64,000 bases of DNA from Thiotrichaceae bacterium (GCA_026989145.1 JALSJU010000123.1:42778-106777); one strand, 5' to 3'; positions 6,705-13,163 are shown, counted from the first letter of the stretch. Notes: generated by a model from the letters alone, not told the origin. Program-made: numbers and translations.

Positions 6705-8012
6705 TTACTTATTAGTGAACTCTGGATATGCTTCCATACCACACTCACCAATATCAACACCTTCGTACTCTTCTTCTTCAGATACGCGAATACCCATAAT
6801 CATTTTGATGATAAACCAAACGATCAATGAGGCAAAGAATACCCAGATAAAGATTGTTGCGGCTCCTACTAGCTGACCAACAAATGTTGCGCCTGTATTA
6901 GTTAACGGTACAGCCATTAAGCCCCAAAAACCGACTACGCCATGTACCGAGATGGCTCCCACAGGATCATCTATTTTGATCTTATCAAAGAATAAAATAG
7001 AGAACACAACAATTAAACCACCAATACCACCAATAATTGTTGCCATTAGAGGTGTTGGAGTAGAAGGCTCTGCCGTTATTGCTACTAGGCCTGCTAAAGC
7101 ACCGTTTAGTGCCATGGTTAAATCAGCCTTACCGAACATTAAGCGTGCCACTAATAAAGCAACAATAGTACCACCTGCAGCTGCTGCATTCGTATTTAAA
7201 AATACCATTGCAACCGAGTTTGAATTAGCAATATCACCTAATTTAAGAACAGAACCACCATTAAATCCGAACCAGCCCATCCAAAGAATGAATGTACCGA
7301 GTGTTGCTAGAGGTAAGTTTGCACCTTGAATCGGATTAATTTTTCCATCAGCGCCGTATTTTCCTTTACGAGCACCAAGCAATAAAACGCCGGCTAATGC
7401 CGCTGCTGCACCTGCCATGTGAACAATACCAGAGCCTGCGAAGTCAGAAAAACCAAAGCCCATAAGACCTGCTTTTTCATCTGCATCACCTAGGTTAAAT
7501 AAACCAAATACTGATTTCCCTCCCCAAGTCCATGCACCTTCCATTGGGTAGATGAATGCTGTCATGACAACCGCAAACAATAAAAATGCCCAAAGCTTCA
7601 TACGCTCAGCAACAGCGCCCGATACAATCGACATTGCTGTTGCTACGAATACTACTTGAAAGAAGAAGTCAGATGCATTGGAGTAAACAGCATCACCACC
7701 AAAACCAGCTTCAGTTGACTCTTTTAATACAGCAGCAACCATGCCGTCAGCATCCTTAGCGCCATCTAATGCGATATCTTTTAAGAAGATGCCACCGTCA
7801 TACATAATCTCATAACCAATCACAAGATACGCCGTACAAGCAATCGCATAAAGTGCGATATTTTTGGTTAAGATTTCTGTGGTACTTTTAGAGCGAACCA
7901 AGCCCGCTTCTAACATCGAGAAACCTGCCGCCATCCACATGACCAAAGCACCCATTACTAAAAAGTAAAAGGTATCCATGGCATATTGTAATTCTAATAT
8001 ATTGTTTTCCAT
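6705..8012 (-). CDS. amtB: Ammonium transporter
   Basis: WMAAGFSMLEAG, FFFQVVF, DFAGSGIVH, WMGWFGFNGGS, DDPVGAISVH; downstream of a P-II gene. Confidence 0.97.
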   Translation of the reverse strand: MENNILELQYAMDTFYFLVMGALVMWMAAGFSMLEAGLVRSKSTTEILTKNIALYAIACTAYLVIGYEIMYDGGIFLKDIALDGAKDADGMVAAVLKESTEAGFGGDAVYSNASDFFFQVVFVATAMSIVSGAVAERMKLWAFLLFAVVMTAFIYPMEGAWTWGGKSVFGLFNLGDADEKAGLMGFGFSDFAGSGIVHMAGAAAALAGVLLLGARKGKYGADGKINPIQGANLPLATLGTFILWMGWFGFNGGSVLKLGDIANSNSVAMVFLNTNAAAAGGTIVALLVARLMFGKADLTMALNGALAGLVAITAEPSTPTPLMATIIGGIGGLIVVFSILFFDKIKIDDPVGAISVHGVVGFWGLMAVPLTNTGATFVGQLVGAATIFIWVFFASLIVWFIIKMIMGIRVSEEEEYEGVDIGECGMEAYPEFTNK

Positions 8013-8035: not shown

Positions 8036-8389
<354 letters not shown>

Positions 8390-8425: not shown

Positions 8426-8442
8426 TGCAATTAACATACCAA
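8426..8442 (-). promoter_or_regulatory. sigma54 (-24/-12) promoter of glnK-amtB
   Basis: Minus strand TTGGTATGTTAATTGCA: GG-N10-GC spacing, about 50 bp upstream of the glnK ATG. Confidence 0.85.
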
Positions 8443-8556: not shown

Positions 8557-8571
8557 GCACCCATTTGGTGC
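8557..8571. promoter_or_regulatory. NtrC-type enhancer box
   Basis: GCAC-CCATTTG-GTGC (GCAC-N7-GTGC), about 115 bp upstream of the sigma54 promoter. Confidence 0.8.
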
Positions 8572-8594: not shown

Positions 8595-10499
8595 CTATTT
8601 TCCCGTAACAATCGCTTTTGCTTGCTCAATCATATCGGCGAGTGAATTTTCTTTAATAGTTTGCCTCAATTCACTCACGTCAAATTTATGATGGCGTTCG
8701 TACGCTACACCTAGCTGTTGCATATCTGCCAACCCTGATTCACGGGCGTGATCAACAAAGCCTTTATTTTTCCAAAAGAATGCGCCTGGCATGGTGGTAG
8801 GTATGACTAGTGCATAGAAAATAATCCGTCCTAAATAAGCCATGATAATTAATGATGCCGTAAAGAATAAGCCTATTAAGATGCCACCAATACCTGATAA
8901 CCCCGTGTAACTAATGGTAACGGCAAGAATAATATTGAAAATCAACAAGGCGTTTCTTAGCCAATACGTTTTACCAAAGGTTGTTGATAGTTCATAGTGC
9001 GCAGCTTGCCCTTCACCAGAGCCACTTTTTAAATCTTTCGCATGAAACAACAAACCGACAGCTTCAATGATTAAACCCAATGCAATAACCATGGCGAAAT
9101 ACTGAATTAACTGGGTACTGTTTGACATAAACAAGCTACCCATAAAGGCCATTAACAAACCACCCAAACTGAGCATGGTGCCGTAGAAGGTTGTAGCTGT
9201 TTGCCAATGATCCCAAAAGGGACGCGCCTTGATGCGATACAACTTATACATATAGTACGAGCCAGCGGCAAAACCGACTAAGCCGAGAATAGCGGACGCG
9301 CCTGCCAATAAGTTCGTTAATCCATTATCAAAGAAGTTAAAGAATGTATAGCCAGCCAATCCTGCAAAAAATGCCGATACACCTGCAATTTCACGACTCA
9401 ATGGTGAATGGCGAAGGTTATTAAAACCACGATAAAAACGGTGTGGCTTGCCTAGATGCATATTAAGTTTATACAAACCAGACCCCATTAAACCAAACAT
9501 TACCAACAACAATGGGACTAACGCACTTGATGACTGCAGGCTTTCTATCACGGGTGCGCCGAATAGAGAGCCTAAAATCACCAACATTACAAATGCACCC
9601 ATCACTGCTTGCGCCGTTAAGGTGAACATCACGTGCGCATTTTCGTGTGATGCTAATAAGGTTTTCATACCCCAGTGTTTGGTTTTGCCATGCTTTTCAT
9701 CCAGCACAGCTTGGTAATTTCCCGCATCGTCGTCACGGTGATATTTAATCGCGGTAGAGTCTACGCGTTTCATATCGCGGTTTAGCGTTTTAGTTTGCTG
9801 AAAACGAATATTGGGTTGGGTTATTCTCGGATCAGGAAAGCCCGGAATTTGCGCATCGACCTGCTCGCGCCCTGCTGGAGTATTTTCGATCACGCCAAAC
9901 TCTAACGCATTACCTAAACAAGCTGAAACACAGGCCGGCTTAAGTCCAACTTCTAAGCGATCGACACACATATTACATTTAGAAACAGTACCTTCAACCG
10001 GGTCTAACTGCGGTGCATTATAGGGGCAAACCCATGTACAGTAACCACAACCAAAACAAATATCAGGGTCTTGTAAGACAGCCCCATATTCAGCAAATTT
10101 GGTATAAGCACGCGTCGGACAGCCTTTTAAACAAACAGGGTCATCACAGTGATTACATGCCATCGAGATATTTTGACGACGGTAATCGGGGTATGTACCG
10201 CCTTCAACAAAACCGACCGAACGAAAAGCAATGTGACCTGCATTATCATTTTTCTCACTACAAGCAGCTTCACAAGCATGGCAGGCAATACAGTTGTCCG
10301 CTGTGAAATAAAAGCCATGTTGTTTGTAGCGGTTAGGATTTTCGCCAATTTCATTATCGTTATTAATATTAAGGCTTTGCTCACGCAACGCATCACCTTC
10401 GGTAGTTAGCTCAATTGGCTTACCGTAACGGTTTTGATCTTTGCTGTCTTTGTCTTGCAAAAACGCGTATTTTGGTTCGTCTTCTCGTACTTGAAACAT
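8595..10499 (-). CDS. Fused DmsB-like 4x[4Fe-4S] domain + DmsC/YnfH-like membrane anchor
   Basis: CIACHACEAAC, CNHCDDPVCLKGCP, CFGCGYCTWVCP, KCNMC..PACVSAC, then about 8 TM helices with HLGKPHRFYRGFNNLRHSPLSRE. Confidence 0.88.
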   Translation of the reverse strand: MFQVREDEPKYAFLQDKDSKDQNRYGKPIELTTEGDALREQSLNINNDNEIGENPNRYKQHGFYFTADNCIACHACEAACSEKNDNAGHIAFRSVGFVEGGTYPDYRRQNISMACNHCDDPVCLKGCPTRAYTKFAEYGAVLQDPDICFGCGYCTWVCPYNAPQLDPVEGTVSKCNMCVDRLEVGLKPACVSACLGNALEFGVIENTPAGREQVDAQIPGFPDPRITQPNIRFQQTKTLNRDMKRVDSTAIKYHRDDDAGNYQAVLDEKHGKTKHWGMKTLLASHENAHVMFTLTAQAVMGAFVMLVILGSLFGAPVIESLQSSSALVPLLLVMFGLMGSGLYKLNMHLGKPHRFYRGFNNLRHSPLSREIAGVSAFFAGLAGYTFFNFFDNGLTNLLAGASAILGLVGFAAGSYYMYKLYRIKARPFWDHWQTATTFYGTMLSLGGLLMAFMGSLFMSNSTQLIQYFAMVIALGLIIEAVGLLFHAKDLKSGSGEGQAAHYELSTTFGKTYWLRNALLIFNIILAVTISYTGLSGIGGILIGLFFTASLIIMAYLGRIIFYALVIPTTMPGAFFWKNKGFVDHARESGLADMQQLGVAYERHHKFDVSELRQTIKENSLADMIEQAKAIVTGK

Positions 10500-10529
10500 G
10501 TCTATAATTTACTCAAAAAATAAAAAGAT

Positions 10530-10567
10530 CAGGTTGGGCATAAATTGGAAGGGGACTCCCAGCCTGA
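10530..10567. other. Intercistronic hairpin between nitrate reductase and its partner gene
   Basis: TCAGGTTGGG ... CCCAGCCTGA imperfect inverted repeat; boundaries approximate. Confidence 0.35.
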
Positions 10568-10624
10568 CAGCTCAATGTAAGGGGTTCTAATAAAGTTTAT
10601 ACTCTATCAGAAGCTCCTACTAAG

Positions 10625-12829
10625 CTAAAAAGTTCGCATCTCCATGCTCATTTGAGCAGCTGCTTTTTGATCTACAATTCGTTCAATTCGAACGGCGGAT
10701 TGTTTATAAGCAGGCTGGCGAGAATGCGGATCGAGCAAACCGAGTGTTAAACGATTTGCACAATCATGAAAATGGAATGGCACAAATATCATATTCTTAG
10801 GAACACGATGTGTAAGCTGTGCCATTACAATGGCGTCGGATCTCGGTGAAACGAGTCTTATGTAATCACCGGCAATCACGCCAAGTTCCCTAGCGGCGTC
10901 AGGATTTAACTCAGCAAACGGTATTGGAGAATACTTATTGTTATTACTGAGCTTTCCTGTCTTACTTCTGCCATGCCAATGCTCGATTAATCGACCAGTG
11001 TTTAGCCAGAACGGGAATTTGTCATCAGGAACTTCATTGTTATCTATAAATGGTAACGGAATGAGCTTTGCCTTACCATCAGGGTAGCGGAAGGTAGCAT
11101 CCTCCGTGTAGAGGCGCACACCACCTTTTTTTGGCGCCTCACCTGCTTCGGCTTGTTCTTTTGTATAAGGCCATTGAATACCACGATGTTTTTCAATGAG
11201 TTCGTGTGTCATGCCAGAATTATCGGATAAGCGCCCATGTGATAACTTGCCCATTTCTAAGAAAATATCAGCTGCTTTTTCAGGAAAATTAACTTTTCCC
11301 TCGATATTAAAACGCTCTGCCATACGATTAAAAATCCATAAATCAGGCTTTGAATTTCCATGTGGTTTTATGACTGGTTTTACCACATTGATACGGCGCT
11401 CGGTATTGGTCATTACACCGTCTTTTTCTGCCCATGTACCAGCGGGTAGATAAACCGTTCCGTATTGCGCACTTTCTGTATCTTCATAACAGTCTTGAAT
11501 CACACAGAACTCTAATTGCTCCATCGCTTTGCGAATGCGCGCTGTATTAGGCAGTGAACTCATCGGGTTGGTGGCGATTAACCATAAGCCTTTTATTTCA
11601 CCCAGCTCCATCGCTTGGTAAATATCGGTTTGAAACATGCCGCGTTTTTTGGGGAAAAACTCAGGATCAACATTCCAAAATTTACCGATATCTTCACGGT
11701 CTTGTGGGTTTTCTAATAAACGGTGATTCGGTAAGCCTGAACAGGAAGACCATTCACGCGTACCCATCGCATTACATTGCCCCGTGATAGAAAGGCTGGT
11801 GCCACCTGGAATACCAATATTACCTGTGATAAGTGCCAAATTATTAATGCCGACCACACCATCAGAGCCGTGAGTGCTTTGGTTAATTCCCATCGTCCAG
11901 ATTTGCATTGCCGTTTTTGCTTTAGCAAATTGGCGCGCGACTGCACGAATCGTATCCTCATCAATGCCACAAATTTTAGCCGCCGTAACAGGGTCGTATT
12001 TTGCAACTTCAGCTCTTAATTCTTCAATGCCATTAGTATTAGCTTCGATATAACGTTTATCTTCAAGACCTTCATCTAAGATCACATACATCATTGAATT
12101 CATCAACACTACATCAGTGCCCGGCGTCACGGTTAAGTGGCGATCTGCATTTTGTGCGAGCATTGTGACGCGCGGGTCAATAACAATCAGAGGAAAGCCC
12201 GATTTTTCTTGTGCTTCTTTCATCCGCCAATAAATAATCGGGTGTTGCTCGGGCAAGTTAGAGCCCCACGCAATCAATAAGTCAGTCTGATCAAAATCAT
12301 CATAACTCCCCGGAGGGCCGTCTGAACCAAATGATCGTTTATAGCCTGAAACCGCCGATGCCATACACAAGGTCGTATTGCCATCGTAATTGTTGGTACC
12401 AATAAGACCACGCGTAAGTTTGCCCAGCGTGTAAAATTCTTCAGTAAGCATTTGCCCTGTAGAAATAACAGCTACAGAATCACGCCCGAATTTCTCTTGT
12501 ACACGGCGAATCTCTGAATAGGTTTTATCCAGCGCAGTATCCCAGTCAGTGGTTTTCCATTCATCATGGAAGCTATCGCGAATTTTAGGCTCCGTACCGC
12601 GACCATCAGATTCAAACAACTCGTGCTCAAAGATACCTTTTAAACACAACTTACCCCGGTTTACATCCGCATTACCCACGCCGCGTGAAGACACGGCTCT
12701 GCCCTCTTCATTTAAACCCACCTCTATTGCACAACCTGTGGAACAATAACCGCAAGTAGCATACTTCCATTCTTTAACGCCTTTTTCGGCAATTTTGATG
12801 GGGTTCTTTTTTCCGCGACCAAATAACAT
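10625..12829 (-). CDS. nasA: Cytoplasmic molybdopterin nitrate reductase catalytic subunit (NasA/NarB-like)
   Basis: CGYCSTGC..LCLKG [4Fe-4S] motif, DGNTTLCMASA Mo-ligand Cys/Met, ITGQCNAMGTRE, GVMTNTERR, LNTGR..HWH; no TAT signal. Confidence 0.8.
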   Translation of the reverse strand: MLFGRGKKNPIKIAEKGVKEWKYATCGYCSTGCAIEVGLNEEGRAVSSRGVGNADVNRGKLCLKGIFEHELFESDGRGTEPKIRDSFHDEWKTTDWDTALDKTYSEIRRVQEKFGRDSVAVISTGQMLTEEFYTLGKLTRGLIGTNNYDGNTTLCMASAVSGYKRSFGSDGPPGSYDDFDQTDLLIAWGSNLPEQHPIIYWRMKEAQEKSGFPLIVIDPRVTMLAQNADRHLTVTPGTDVVLMNSMMYVILDEGLEDKRYIEANTNGIEELRAEVAKYDPVTAAKICGIDEDTIRAVARQFAKAKTAMQIWTMGINQSTHGSDGVVGINNLALITGNIGIPGGTSLSITGQCNAMGTREWSSCSGLPNHRLLENPQDREDIGKFWNVDPEFFPKKRGMFQTDIYQAMELGEIKGLWLIATNPMSSLPNTARIRKAMEQLEFCVIQDCYEDTESAQYGTVYLPAGTWAEKDGVMTNTERRINVVKPVIKPHGNSKPDLWIFNRMAERFNIEGKVNFPEKAADIFLEMGKLSHGRLSDNSGMTHELIEKHRGIQWPYTKEQAEAGEAPKKGGVRLYTEDATFRYPDGKAKLIPLPFIDNNEVPDDKFPFWLNTGRLIEHWHGRSKTGKLSNNNKYSPIPFAELNPDAARELGVIAGDYIRLVSPRSDAIVMAQLTHRVPKNMIFVPFHFHDCANRLTLGLLDPHSRQPAYKQSAVRIERIVDQKAAAQMSMEMRTF

Positions 12830-12865: not shown

Positions 12866-12882
12866 AGCAATTACTGTGCCAA
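12866..12882 (-). promoter_or_regulatory. sigma54 promoter of the nitrate reductase operon
   Basis: Minus strand TTGGCACAGTAATTGCT, a perfect TGGCAC-N5-TTGC match. Confidence 0.9.
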
Positions 12883-12924
12883 CCCATTAAACTCTTAAAA
12901 ATTAGAGTGGATATACGTTATTAA

Positions 12925-13095
12925 GGAAACCCTGATTAAGTCCCATAAAATTCTGTAAGTCTCTAGGGCAGTATATCCTAGGCGTATTTCTCATGAATGC
13001 TTATTGCCTTCATGAGAAATACAACAACGGAGATGCTGCCCTAGAGCCTTACCCTTTGCCGTTGCCAGAATTAATGGGACTTAATCAGGTTTTCC
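12925..13095. mobile_element. 171 bp MITE-like nested hairpin flanked by TTAA
   Basis: GGAAACCCTGATTAAGTCCCATAAAATTCTG / CAGAATTAATGGGACTTAATCAGGTTTTCC near-perfect terminal inverted repeats, two further nested inverted repeats, TTAA at 12921-12924 and 13096-13099. Confidence 0.7.
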
Positions 13096-13148
13096 TTAAG
13101 GAAAACCACCTAAAACATAACACAAATAGGATCAAAGATTAGTTTGGC

Positions 13149-13163
13149 GCACTAAAGTGGTGC
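13149..13163. promoter_or_regulatory. NtrC-type enhancer box
   Basis: GCAC-TAAAGTG-GTGC (GCAC-N7-GTGC). Confidence 0.7.

What the first reader, a model, noticed from the sequence alone, without database searches (positions are those of the whole stretch)
8595..12829. N-regulated cytoplasmic nitrate reductase wired to a DmsB-DmsC-like membrane fusion
Seen: a 734-aa Mo enzyme with nitrate-reductase motifs, no Tat signal and no recognisable C-terminal BFD domain, followed by one polypeptide carrying four Fe-S motifs plus a multi-TM anchor. A perfect sigma54 promoter and an NtrC-type box lie upstream, and glnK-amtB is next door. Established: characterised assimilatory nitrate reductases use NADH-diaphorase or ferredoxin/flavodoxin, while DmsC-type anchors exchange electrons with quinols. 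Inference: a quinol-fed assimilatory nitrate reductase, a poorly characterised architecture that would suit a lithotroph short of NADH.
Basis: partly seen in the sequence, partly recalled or inferred. Interest (0 to 1): 0.6.

Follow-up and report, generated by a model that had tools for sequence, protein, structure and literature searches.

The report
Membrane-anchored, quinol-fed assimilatory nitrate reductase
This sulfur-oxidising bacterium's only candidate nitrate reductase is encoded next to one protein that joins an iron-sulfur wire to a quinol-binding membrane anchor facing the cell interior, so nitrate for growth is probably reduced with electrons from the membrane quinone pool, not NADH or ferredoxin; the arrangement is widespread, and I found no paper describing it.

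Summary
On the minus strand, 12829-10625 encodes a 734-aa cytoplasmic Mo-bisPGD enzyme with nitrate-reductase active-site residues. 10499-8595 encodes a 634-aa fusion of a four-[4Fe-4S] DmsB-like domain and an eight-helix DmsC-type anchor. An exact sigma54 promoter and an NtrC-type box lie upstream; glnK-amtB follows with its own NtrC box and sigma54 promoter.

- In 70 of 70 related loci with enough upstream sequence, the Mo gene sits directly upstream of the fusion gene, mostly as narK | nirB-nirD-Mo-fusion.
- In 400 sampled Gammaproteobacteria, 55 have the fusion, 58 the Mo orthologue and 54 both.
- The DmsC quinol-site residues are invariant.
- Loop charges (14 K+R against 0) place the site and the Fe-S domain in the cytoplasm.
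- A complex model scores 0.86 against 0.00 for controls.
- The genome has no Nap or Nar, but has nirBD and narK behind matching sigma54 promoters, plus RuBisCO, Dsr and Soe.

The Mo subunit is not a canonical NasA, NapA or formate dehydrogenase. Its nearest relative is a Tat-exported enzyme with separate DmsB and DmsC genes.

I found no description in the literature I could search. This scan has already flagged the same architecture in at least 28 other genomes.

The parts
10625..12829 (-). Catalytic subunit: 734-aa cytoplasmic Mo-bisPGD nitrate reductase. FS0 cysteines are 26/29/33/62; the Mo ligand is Cys155; Met156, Met313 and Arg358 are present.
   Evidence: Pfam and NCBIfam; alignment to 2NAP; trees; NCBI names orthologues 'nitrate reductase'.
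8595..10499 (-). Electron-input subunit: 634-aa fusion. Residues 1-59 are a conserved extension of unknown role. Residues 60-206 are a DmsB-like 4x[4Fe-4S] domain. Residues 207-286 are a linker. Residues 287-565 are an eight-helix DmsC-type anchor with quinol-site residues His348/Ser365/Glu370. Residues 566-634 are a conserved cytoplasmic tail.
12866..12881 (-). Sigma54 -24/-12 promoter TGGCACAGTAATTGCT, 37 bp upstream of the Mo gene's ATG.
   Evidence: Only exact match in the window. Near-identical elements precede nirB and narK on contig C25. A consensus element sits at -42 to -61 of the leading gene in most of the 28 (of 58) related loci that carry one. rpoN is present.
13149..13163 (.). 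NtrC-type palindrome GCAC-N7-GTGC, 268 bp upstream of the sigma54 promoter and 23 bp upstream of the divergent ydjM-like gene.
   Evidence: One of only two matches in the window, both upstream of sigma54 promoters. An ntrC equivalog is present at 698 bits.
12921..13099 (.). About 180-bp nested-palindrome repeat (MITE-like), inserted between the NtrC-type box and the sigma54 promoter.
   Evidence: Inverted-repeat arms. At least 25 copies at 90% identity or more on other contigs; predicted fold -97 kcal/mol.
8036..8374 (-). glnK (P-II), a downstream neighbour. It has its own NtrC-type box (8557-8571) and sigma54-like promoter TGGTATGTTAATTGCA (8426-8441).
6705..8012 (-). amtB (ammonium transporter, marine subtype), co-transcribed with glnK.

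Best explanation
The two genes encode a cytoplasm-facing complex iron-sulfur molybdoenzyme built from two polypeptides.

The 634-aa protein is inserted with its N-terminal four-cluster domain in the cytoplasm. Its eight-helix DmsC-type domain is upside down relative to E. coli DmsC. Quinol (probably ubiquinol) is oxidised at a site near the cytoplasmic face formed by His348, Ser365 and Glu370. Electrons pass along the four [4Fe-4S] clusters to the FS0 cluster and the Mo-bisPGD centre of the 734-aa subunit, which reduces imported nitrate to nitrite. NirBD, encoded on another contig, takes nitrite on to ammonium.

Both half-reactions lie on the same side of the membrane, so the step should conserve no energy. 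It does spare NAD(P)H, which a sulfur-oxidising autotroph must make by reverse electron flow.

Transcription runs from a sigma54 promoter, probably activated by NtrC under nitrogen limitation.

Shown by sequence: domain make-up, cofactor ligands, active-site and quinol-site residues, topology signals, synteny and co-occurrence, and promoter elements.

Inferred: that the complex forms, that quinol is the donor, that the role is assimilatory, and that expression is nitrogen-regulated.
For: Nitrate reductase identity:
- The Cys-Met, Met and Arg residues align with D. desulfuricans NapA, the best PDB hit.
- The clade lies among Cys-Met enzymes, apart from the E. coli FdhF/FDH clade.
- Named neighbours in the trees are nitrate reductases.

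Assimilatory role:
- About 45 of 80 related loci read narK | nirB-nirD-Mo-fusion.
- The nearest cytoplasmic outgroup (43% identity, distant GC-rich lineage) also sits next to an Fe-S/DmsC fusion, a NirB-NirD fusion, an MFS transporter and a GAF-ANTAR regulator.
- In the own genome the only Mo enzymes are this one, NuoG, SoeA and one orphan; there is no Nap or Nar.
- nirBD and narK are present behind near-identical sigma54 promoters.

Partnership:
- The Mo gene is immediately upstream of the fusion gene in all 70 loci that have enough upstream sequence.
- In a 400-genome class sample, 55 have the fusion, 58 the Mo orthologue and 54 both. Of the four Mo-only genomes, two carry only a fragmentary Mo match (one at a contig end), one has its contig end 314 bp past the Mo gene, and one is 88% complete.
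- The complex model gives ipSAE 0.86 against a best control of 0.00. That mark was reached by 58 of 80 solved complexes and 2 of 110 mismatched pairs. The runs share at least 84% of contacts, and the partner's pLDDT is at least 77. The interface joins the FS0 region (60-67) to the cluster bound by Cys70/73/76/194.

Quinol site and orientation:
- E. coli DmsB is 38% identical and DmsC 32% identical.
- DmsC His65, Ser82 and Glu87, listed as quinol-site residues and backed by mutagenesis in PMC8076601, correspond to His348, Ser365 and Glu370. These are invariant in 34 sequences.
- There are eight helices at pLDDT 85-95.
- Loops on the Fe-S side carry 14 K+R; the opposite side carries 0.
- Neither protein has a Tat or Sec signal.

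Physiology: two RuBisCO genes, DsrAB and SoeABC are present. UbiA is present and MenA was not found.

Regulation.
Against: - There is no experiment of any kind.
- NirD here keeps the Rieske ligands (CPH...CPLH). An NADH-NirB-NirD route to the reductase, as described for Paracoccus NasBGC (from my own knowledge), is therefore not excluded.
- Solved complexes of the same general kind exist (FdnGH, PsrAB), so the complex score may reflect likeness, not this pair.
- AlphaFold2 modelled the Fe-S domain poorly (pLDDT under 50). The Foldseek matches to ActC and PsrC are weak (best E 4.5e-3).
- E. coli DmsC uses menaquinol, whereas this genome appears to make only ubiquinone.
- In this genome nirBD is not linked to the reductase genes.
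- One sampled genome has an orphan fusion gene with no Mo neighbour.
- Promoter and NtrC sites are consensus matches only. The NtrC-type box lies 268 bp from the promoter, beside a divergent gene.
Confidence: 0.6

Rival explanations
1. Electrons for nitrate reduction come mainly from NADH through NirB and the Rieske-type NirD, as in Paracoccus NasBGC. The Fe-S/DmsC protein would then be an auxiliary membrane tether or a second, minor route.
For: NirD keeps the CxH...CxxH Rieske ligands. nirB-nirD directly precedes the Mo gene in most relatives. All three promoters are co-regulated in form.
Against: The Mo subunit lacks the C-terminal 2Fe-2S domain of the NADH-linked NasA/NasC type. The fusion's quinol-site residues and all 16 cluster cysteines are invariant or nearly so, which a mere tether would not need. 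In this genome and several relatives the Mo-fusion pair is transcribed apart from nirBD. The modelled interface puts FS0 against the fusion's first cluster.
Confidence: 0.15
2. The complex is mainly a dissimilatory or redox-balancing quinol:nitrate oxidoreductase. It would serve as an electron sink under low oxygen, standing in for the missing Nar and Nap.
For: The genome has no Nap or Nar. The enzyme's nearest relative is a Tat-exported three-subunit complex of respiratory design. A quinol-linked reductase can drain the quinone pool.
Against: Sigma54 and NtrC-type elements are present here and in 28 of 58 relatives. Synteny is with nirBD and narK, and here with glnK-amtB. With the quinol site and the active site both on the cytoplasmic side, no redox loop is expected.
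Confidence: 0.1
3. A soluble ferredoxin or flavodoxin reduces the four-cluster domain, giving NarB-like chemistry. The DmsC-type domain would only hold the enzyme at the membrane near the nitrate transporter.
For: JGI annotates some orthologues as ferredoxin-nitrate reductase. Some members of the same wider clade stand alone next to an MFS transporter and Moco genes, with no Fe-S/DmsC partner.
Against: His348, Ser365 and Glu370, the counterparts of the DmsC quinol-site residues, are invariant even in a 30%-identical distant homologue.
Confidence: 0.1
4. The Mo enzyme acts on another substrate (formate, chlorate, selenate or a sulfur compound), and the link to nitrate is only apparent.
For: Its best NCBIfam score is to the formate dehydrogenase alpha model (530 bits), and no curated cut-off is reached.
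Against: It has no (Sec/Cys)-His pair and lies outside the FDH clade that holds E. coli FdhF. Its active-site residues match NapA. It is consistently linked to nirBD and narK.
Confidence: 0.03

Closest known systems
SoeABC sulfite:quinone oxidoreductase (Allochromatium vinosum, Aquifex aeolicus)
   Same: It is the only NrfD-type complex that the 2021 review lists as facing the cytoplasm, with an inverted anchor and an N-side quinone site (PMC8076601). It has the same three modules. The SoeC quinone-site residues His65/Ser82/Ser85/Glu87 match His348/Ser365/Ser368/Glu370.
   Different: Soe passes electrons from substrate to quinone, the opposite direction. Its B and C subunits are separate proteins. 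The genome's own SoeA, SoeB and SoeC are only 24%, 37% and (over a short stretch) 36% identical, less similar than E. coli DmsB and DmsC are. The substrate is sulfite.
E. coli DmsABC (DMSO reductase)
   Same: DmsB is 38% identical and DmsC 32% identical to the two halves of the fusion. It has four clusters, eight helices, no haem, and the same quinol-site His/Ser/Glu. Electrons flow from quinol to the Mo site.
   Different: DmsAB is Tat-exported to the periplasm and uses menaquinol; B and C are separate proteins. DmsA is only 22% identical to the Mo subunit here.
Canonical assimilatory nitrate reductases (Klebsiella NasA, Bacillus NasC, Paracoccus NasC; cyanobacterial NarB; haloarchaeal NasA)
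   Same: They are cytoplasmic Mo-bisPGD enzymes with FS0 and a Cys Mo ligand. Their genes are linked to nirBD and a nitrate transporter, and they are nitrogen-regulated.
   Different: These are soluble enzymes fed by NAD(P)H modules or by ferredoxin/flavodoxin. The NasA/NasC type carries a C-terminal 2Fe-2S domain that is absent here. The protein scores far below the curated cut-offs (452 against 1100; 457 against 1000) and lies in a different clade.
Tat-exported three-subunit nitrate-reductase-like complex of Symbiobacteriaceae (locus L098; uncharacterised)
   Same: It is the sister of the window's clade in the IQ-TREE tree (SH-aLRT 94). Its Mo gene is followed by DmsB-like and DmsC genes, and its B subunit is 49% identical to the fusion's Fe-S domain.
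   Different: It has a twin-arginine signal (RRAFLK) and so faces outward. B and C are separate genes, and there are no nitrate-assimilation neighbours.
NarGHI respiratory nitrate reductase
   Same: It is a membrane-bound, cytoplasm-facing quinol:nitrate oxidoreductase with a four-cluster subunit.
   Different: Its anchor NarI is a di-haem cytochrome b with a P-side quinol site, which makes an electrogenic redox loop. NarG uses an Asp Mo ligand and is very distant (39 bits).

Membership tests
Complex iron-sulfur molybdoenzymes with an NrfD/DmsC-type anchor (DmsABC, PsrABC, SoeABC design) | Mo-bisPGD catalytic subunit with an N-terminal FS0 [4Fe-4S] motif | tested here: met
   Pfam Molybdop_Fe4S4, Molybdopterin and Molydop_binding; Cys26/29/33/62.
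Complex iron-sulfur molybdoenzymes with an NrfD/DmsC-type anchor (DmsABC, PsrABC, SoeABC design) | Four-cluster ferredoxin-like subunit with 16 Cys in four groups | tested here: met
   16 Cys at 70-194; DmsB model 1e-45; 38% identical to E. coli DmsB.
Complex iron-sulfur molybdoenzymes with an NrfD/DmsC-type anchor (DmsABC, PsrABC, SoeABC design) | Haem-free eight-helix anchor of the DmsC/NrfD fold | tested here: met
   Pfam DmsC matched over its full length, E 1.3e-19. Eight helices at pLDDT 85-95. Foldseek's top hits are ActC and PsrC, but weak (E 4.5e-3; PsrC TM 0.65).
Complex iron-sulfur molybdoenzymes with an NrfD/DmsC-type anchor (DmsABC, PsrABC, SoeABC design) | Conserved quinol-site residues (DmsC His65, Ser82, Glu87) | tested here: met
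   His348, Ser365 and Glu370 align with them and are invariant in 34 sequences. Residue list from PMC8076601.
Complex iron-sulfur molybdoenzymes with an NrfD/DmsC-type anchor (DmsABC, PsrABC, SoeABC design) | Physical A-B complex and quinol oxidoreductase activity | not testable with these tools
   Only a model is available: ipSAE 0.86 against 0.00 for the best control. Like complexes have been solved, so the score may come from memory.
Canonical NasA/NasC assimilatory nitrate reductase (NCBIfam NF047855) | Score above the curated cut-off; membership of the clade | tested here: not met
   452 bits against a cut-off of 1100. It lies in a separate starred clade from the Photobacterium and Sphingorhabdus type enzymes.
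Canonical NasA/NasC assimilatory nitrate reductase (NCBIfam NF047855) | C-terminal 2Fe-2S (BFD-like) extension | tested here: not met
   No Fer2_BFD hit. Only 18 residues remain after the aligned core, against 175-265 in the canonical clade.
Canonical NasA/NasC assimilatory nitrate reductase (NCBIfam NF047855) | Cys Mo ligand with the nitrate-reductase Met and Arg; genes linked to nirBD and a nitrate transporter | tested here: met
   Cys155-Met156, Met313 and Arg358. Linked to nirBD and narK in about 45 relatives. In this genome the genes are unlinked but sit behind matching sigma54 promoters.
Ferredoxin-dependent NarB / haloarchaeal NasA (NF041323) | Score above the curated cut-off | tested here: not met
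   457 bits against 1000. The placement of the haloarchaeal NasA is unstable between the two trees.
Periplasmic nitrate reductase NapA (NF010055, TIGR01706) | Twin-arginine signal; score above the cut-off; NapB or NapC partners | tested here: not met
   No RR signal. 387 bits against 904. E. coli NapA falls in another clade. The PF00384 search of the genome found no NapA.
Formate dehydrogenase alpha (TIGR01591) | Sec/Cys-His pair at the Mo site; score above the cut-off | tested here: not met
   It has Cys-Met, not Cys/Sec-His. 530 bits against 666. It lies outside the clade that holds E. coli FdhF.
SoeABC | Orthology of the three subunits | tested here: not met
   The genome's own SoeA, SoeB and SoeC are 24%, 37% and 36% (53 residues only) identical, less similar than E. 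coli DmsB and DmsC. Only the cytoplasmic orientation is shared.

The most novel reading that the evidence does not exclude
A widespread class of membrane-bound, cytoplasm-facing (ubi)quinol:nitrate oxidoreductase carries out the first step of nitrate assimilation. I found no description of it. It occurs in about one in seven sampled Gammaproteobacteria (sulfur oxidisers, methanotrophs, hydrocarbon degraders, invertebrate symbionts) and in at least one distant lineage. It would have arisen from a Tat-exported three-subunit enzyme by loss of export, fusion of the B and C subunits, and inversion of the anchor.
Probability: 0.55. Interest if true: 0.75.

Novelty: new variant of a known kind. Interest (0 to 1): 0.62.

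Why it matters
Textbook assimilatory nitrate reductases are soluble and take electrons from NAD(P)H or from ferredoxin/flavodoxin. A quinol-fed, membrane-anchored form would add a third electron-donor class. It would change the energy budget of nitrate-based growth for autotrophs and methanotrophs that are short of NADH. It would give a function to a gene now annotated as a DMSO-reductase subunit, an anchor, or even aspartate carbamoyltransferase. It would also affect how nasA/narB marker genes are read in marine and symbiont metagenomes. The idea can be tested directly in cultured hosts such as Methylomicrobium lacus, whose genome holds the same gene pair.

Tried and rejected
- Formate dehydrogenase reading: rejected. 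The protein has no Sec/Cys-His pair and lies outside the FDH clade.
- Periplasmic location: rejected. Neither protein has a Tat or Sec signal.
- Recent origin from the genome's own SoeBC: rejected. E. coli DmsB and DmsC are more similar.
- Literature: seven full-text searches found no description of a Nas enzyme with a DmsBC-type partner. The candidate papers I opened were unrelated (PMC4013037, PMC7327174), and PMC10623323 treats nasA and nirD as the reductase subunits. The NrfD review lists no nitrate-assimilation complex. This covers open-access text only.
- AlphaFold2 of the whole fusion: the Fe-S domain has pLDDT under 50, so the relative placement of the domains could not be read from the model.
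- Foldseek against the PDB: no hit at E 0.001 or better.
- Apparent exceptions to co-occurrence: G222's contig ends 314 bp past the Mo gene. G090 and G172 carry only fragmentary Mo matches, G172's at a contig end. G215 is a real orphan fusion gene with unrelated neighbours.
- The first gene call for the distant homologue (L092) looked like a two-cluster protein. The open frame shows the full four-cluster domain upstream of the called start.
- Matches to the sigma54 pattern with one mismatch are not enriched (4 found, 3.19 expected). Only the exact match and its position carry weight.

Full report
**What is there.** The minus strand between 12829 and 6705 carries four genes.
- 12829-10625: a 734-aa molybdopterin oxidoreductase.
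- 10499-8595: a 634-aa protein.
- 8374-8036: glnK.
- 8012-6705: amtB.

The 734-aa protein has the three Pfam domains of a Mo-bisPGD enzyme and nothing else. It has no Fer2_BFD domain. Only 25 hydrophilic residues precede the first FS0 cysteine, so it has no Tat signal.

The 634-aa protein has 16 cysteines in four classical groups between residues 70 and 194. It matches the DmsB model over 60-206, and Pfam DmsC over 285-564 across the whole profile.

**The organism.** The window is part of a 2.63-Mb draft genome that is 97.7% complete. The names of the closest homologues point to Thiotrichaceae near Cocleimonas. The genome encodes two RuBisCO large subunits, DsrAB and SoeABC. That supports calling it a sulfur-oxidising autotroph. 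UbiA is present and MenA was not found, so ubiquinone is probably the only quinone.

**Is the Mo enzyme a nitrate reductase?**
- No curated NCBIfam cut-off is reached: Fdh-alpha 530 against 666, haloarchaeal NasA 457 against 1000, NasC 452 against 1100, NapA 387 against 904.
- The best solved relative is the monomeric NapA of D. desulfuricans (421 bits). The alignment keeps the Cys-Met pair (Cys155-Met156), Met313 and Arg358. The role of these residues in NapA is from my own knowledge.
- A search of 1.84 billion cluster representatives shows a tight, isolated family. Orthologues are 65-92% identical, but the nearest other cluster is only 43% identical.
- In a 147-row FastTree and a 47-row IQ-TREE, the clade has 100% support. 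It lies in a starred group of Cys-Met enzymes. It is separate from three other clades: the canonical NasA clade with the C-terminal extension (named members from Photobacterium and Sphingorhabdus); the classical NapA clade, which takes in E. coli NapA; and the formate dehydrogenase clade, which takes in E. coli FdhF and has Cys/Sec-His.

So it works like a nitrate reductase but is not a member of the NasA/NasC, NapA or FDH families as curated.

**Is the role assimilatory?** I fetched 80 loci encoding orthologues of the fusion protein. They come from Thiotrichaceae, Leucothrix, Methylococcales (including Methylomicrobium lacus and Crenothrix), Cycloclasticus, Sedimenticola, and the Solemya and Lamellibrachia symbionts.
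- Every one of the 70 loci with enough upstream sequence has the Mo gene directly upstream.
- About 45 loci read narK (divergent), nirB, nirD, Mo, fusion.
- The nearest cytoplasmic outgroup is 43% identical and comes from a GC-rich distant lineage. Its gene overlaps an Fe-S/DmsC fusion gene and lies beside a NirB-NirD fusion, an MFS transporter and a GAF-ANTAR regulator.

In the window's own genome the cluster is split. narK, nirB and nirD lie at the end of contig C25. A whole-genome search for the molybdopterin domain finds only this enzyme, NuoG, SoeA and one orphan 672-aa enzyme. There is no Nap or Nar.

**Regulation.**
- TGGCACAGTAATTGCT lies 37 bp upstream of the Mo gene. It is the only exact sigma54 consensus in the window.
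- Genome-wide, the relaxed pattern occurs 21 times. Two of the other sites face nirB (TGGCACAGAAATTGCT) and narK on C25.
- A consensus element precedes the leading gene in 28 of 58 related loci, in most of them at -42 to -61.
- The NtrC-type palindrome GCAC-N7-GTGC occurs only twice in 64 kb (0.63 expected). One copy is at 13149-13163, upstream of this promoter. The other is at 8557-8571, upstream of a second sigma54-like promoter that serves glnK-amtB.
- An ntrC equivalog and rpoN are present.
- A 180-bp nested palindrome, present in at least 25 copies in the genome, has inserted between the box and the promoter. It stretches their distance to 268 bp.

All of this is prediction; no expression data exist.

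**The partner and its orientation.**
- E. coli DmsB is 38% identical to residues 60-231, and DmsC is 32% identical to residues 285-442.
- The review of NrfD-type subunits lists His65, Ser82 and Glu87 among the DmsC quinol-site residues and cites mutagenesis for His65 and Glu87 (PMC8076601). They align with His348, Ser365 and Glu370. These are invariant in 34 sequences, including the 30%-identical distant homologue.
- AlphaFold2 gives eight confident helices.
- The segments on the Fe-S side hold 14 Lys+Arg and the opposite loops hold none. The family medians are 14 and 1.
- With no export signal on either protein, the Fe-S domain, the quinol site and the Mo subunit should all face the cytoplasm. 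That is the inverse of DmsABC and matches what is proposed for SoeABC.
- A complex model of the Mo subunit with residues 55-290 of the fusion scores 0.86 against 0.00 for the best of three controls. That mark was reached by 58 of 80 solved complexes and 2 of 110 mismatched pairs. The runs agree in at least 84% of contacts, and the partner's pLDDT is at least 77. The FS0 region sits against the cluster bound by Cys70/73/76/194. Complexes of this general kind have been solved, so the pass shows likeness and does not prove binding.

**Distribution and origin.**
- In an even sample of 400 Gammaproteobacteria, 55 genomes have the fusion, 58 have the Mo orthologue and 54 have both.
- Of the four Mo-only genomes, two carry only a fragmentary Mo match (one at a contig end), one contig ends 314 bp after the Mo gene, and one genome is 88% complete.
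- One genome has an orphan fusion gene.
- The sister of the clade in the IQ-TREE tree is a Symbiobacteriaceae enzyme with a twin-arginine signal. It is followed by separate DmsB-like and DmsC genes, and its B subunit is 49% identical to the fusion's Fe-S domain.
- Another branch of the same wider group stands alone beside an MFS transporter and Moco genes.

This suggests a long-standing A-B-C partnership that, in the window's lineage, lost export and fused B to C. The order of these events is not established.

**Mechanism and its limits.** The best-supported reading is a cytoplasm-facing quinol:nitrate oxidoreductase that supplies nitrite to NirBD. Both half-reactions are on the same side of the membrane, so no redox loop is expected. 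The gain would be to spare NAD(P)H, which a sulfur-oxidising autotroph makes by reverse electron flow (inference from established bioenergetics).

The main rival is an NADH-NirB-NirD route. It stays open because NirD keeps the Rieske ligands. A respiratory or redox-balancing role, and reduction of the Fe-S domain by a soluble ferredoxin, are less likely but not excluded.

**Novelty.** Seven full-text searches and several opened papers gave no description of such a complex, and the NrfD review does not list one. Annotation pipelines call the Mo subunit a nitrate reductase or a ferredoxin-nitrate reductase. They call the partner a DMSO reductase subunit, an anchor, or aspartate carbamoyltransferase.

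After my own analysis I looked up this scan's earlier notes. The same architecture has been reported in at least 28 other genomes, with the same reading. Those are AI notes, not independent evidence.

Three things are particular to this window: the split from nirBD, a separate sigma54/NtrC-type control region interrupted by a repeat element, and the neighbouring glnK-amtB operon with the same kind of control region.

Noticed in passing
window:12921-13099: A nested-palindrome repeat of about 180 bp (three pairs of inverted arms, predicted fold -97 kcal/mol). It is present in at least 25 copies at 90% identity or more on other contigs. It looks like a MITE, and here it sits between an NtrC-type box and its sigma54 promoter.
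   Followed up: partly
window:8426-8571: glnK-amtB has its own NtrC-type palindrome (8557-8571) and sigma54-like promoter TGGTATGTTAATTGCA (8426-8441). It is therefore probably a separate nitrogen-regulated unit, not the tail of the nitrate reductase operon.
   Followed up: partly
window:8595-8798 and window:10323-10499: The fusion protein has a conserved N-terminal extension (residues 1-59) and a highly conserved cytoplasmic C-terminal tail (residues 566-634, with the VIPTTMPGAFFWKN motif). Neither matches a known domain. The tail is absent from the distant GC-rich homologue.
   Followed up: no
L003:910-2925: An orphan 672-aa cytoplasmic molybdopterin enzyme on contig C83. It reaches no curated family cut-off (best Fdh-alpha 260 bits, DmsA 215 bits) and has no adjacent Fe-S or anchor gene.
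   Followed up: no
L006 (G000:C25:24178-26536): Contig C25 ends inside the last codons of nirD. NirD keeps the Rieske ligands CPH...CPLH. The divergent narK-nirB intergenic region holds two sigma54 consensus sites and a palindrome TGCAC-N8-GTGCA.
   Followed up: partly
L098:6001-9764: A Symbiobacteriaceae contig encodes a Tat-signal Mo enzyme followed by separate DmsB-like and DmsC genes. It is the closest relative of the window's clade and looks like an outward-facing, three-subunit quinol:nitrate reductase that is neither Nap nor Nar.
   Followed up: partly
L095:4381-6273: In one sampled gammaproteobacterial genome (G215) the fusion gene is an orphan. Its neighbours are ATP-grasp, transglutaminase, glycosyltransferase and HD-domain genes, and no Mo orthologue was found at the threshold used.
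   Followed up: partly
window:15731-17982: An AAA/OLD-like ATPase (596 aa) preceded by two overlapping 88-aa ORFs. Not examined here.
   Followed up: no
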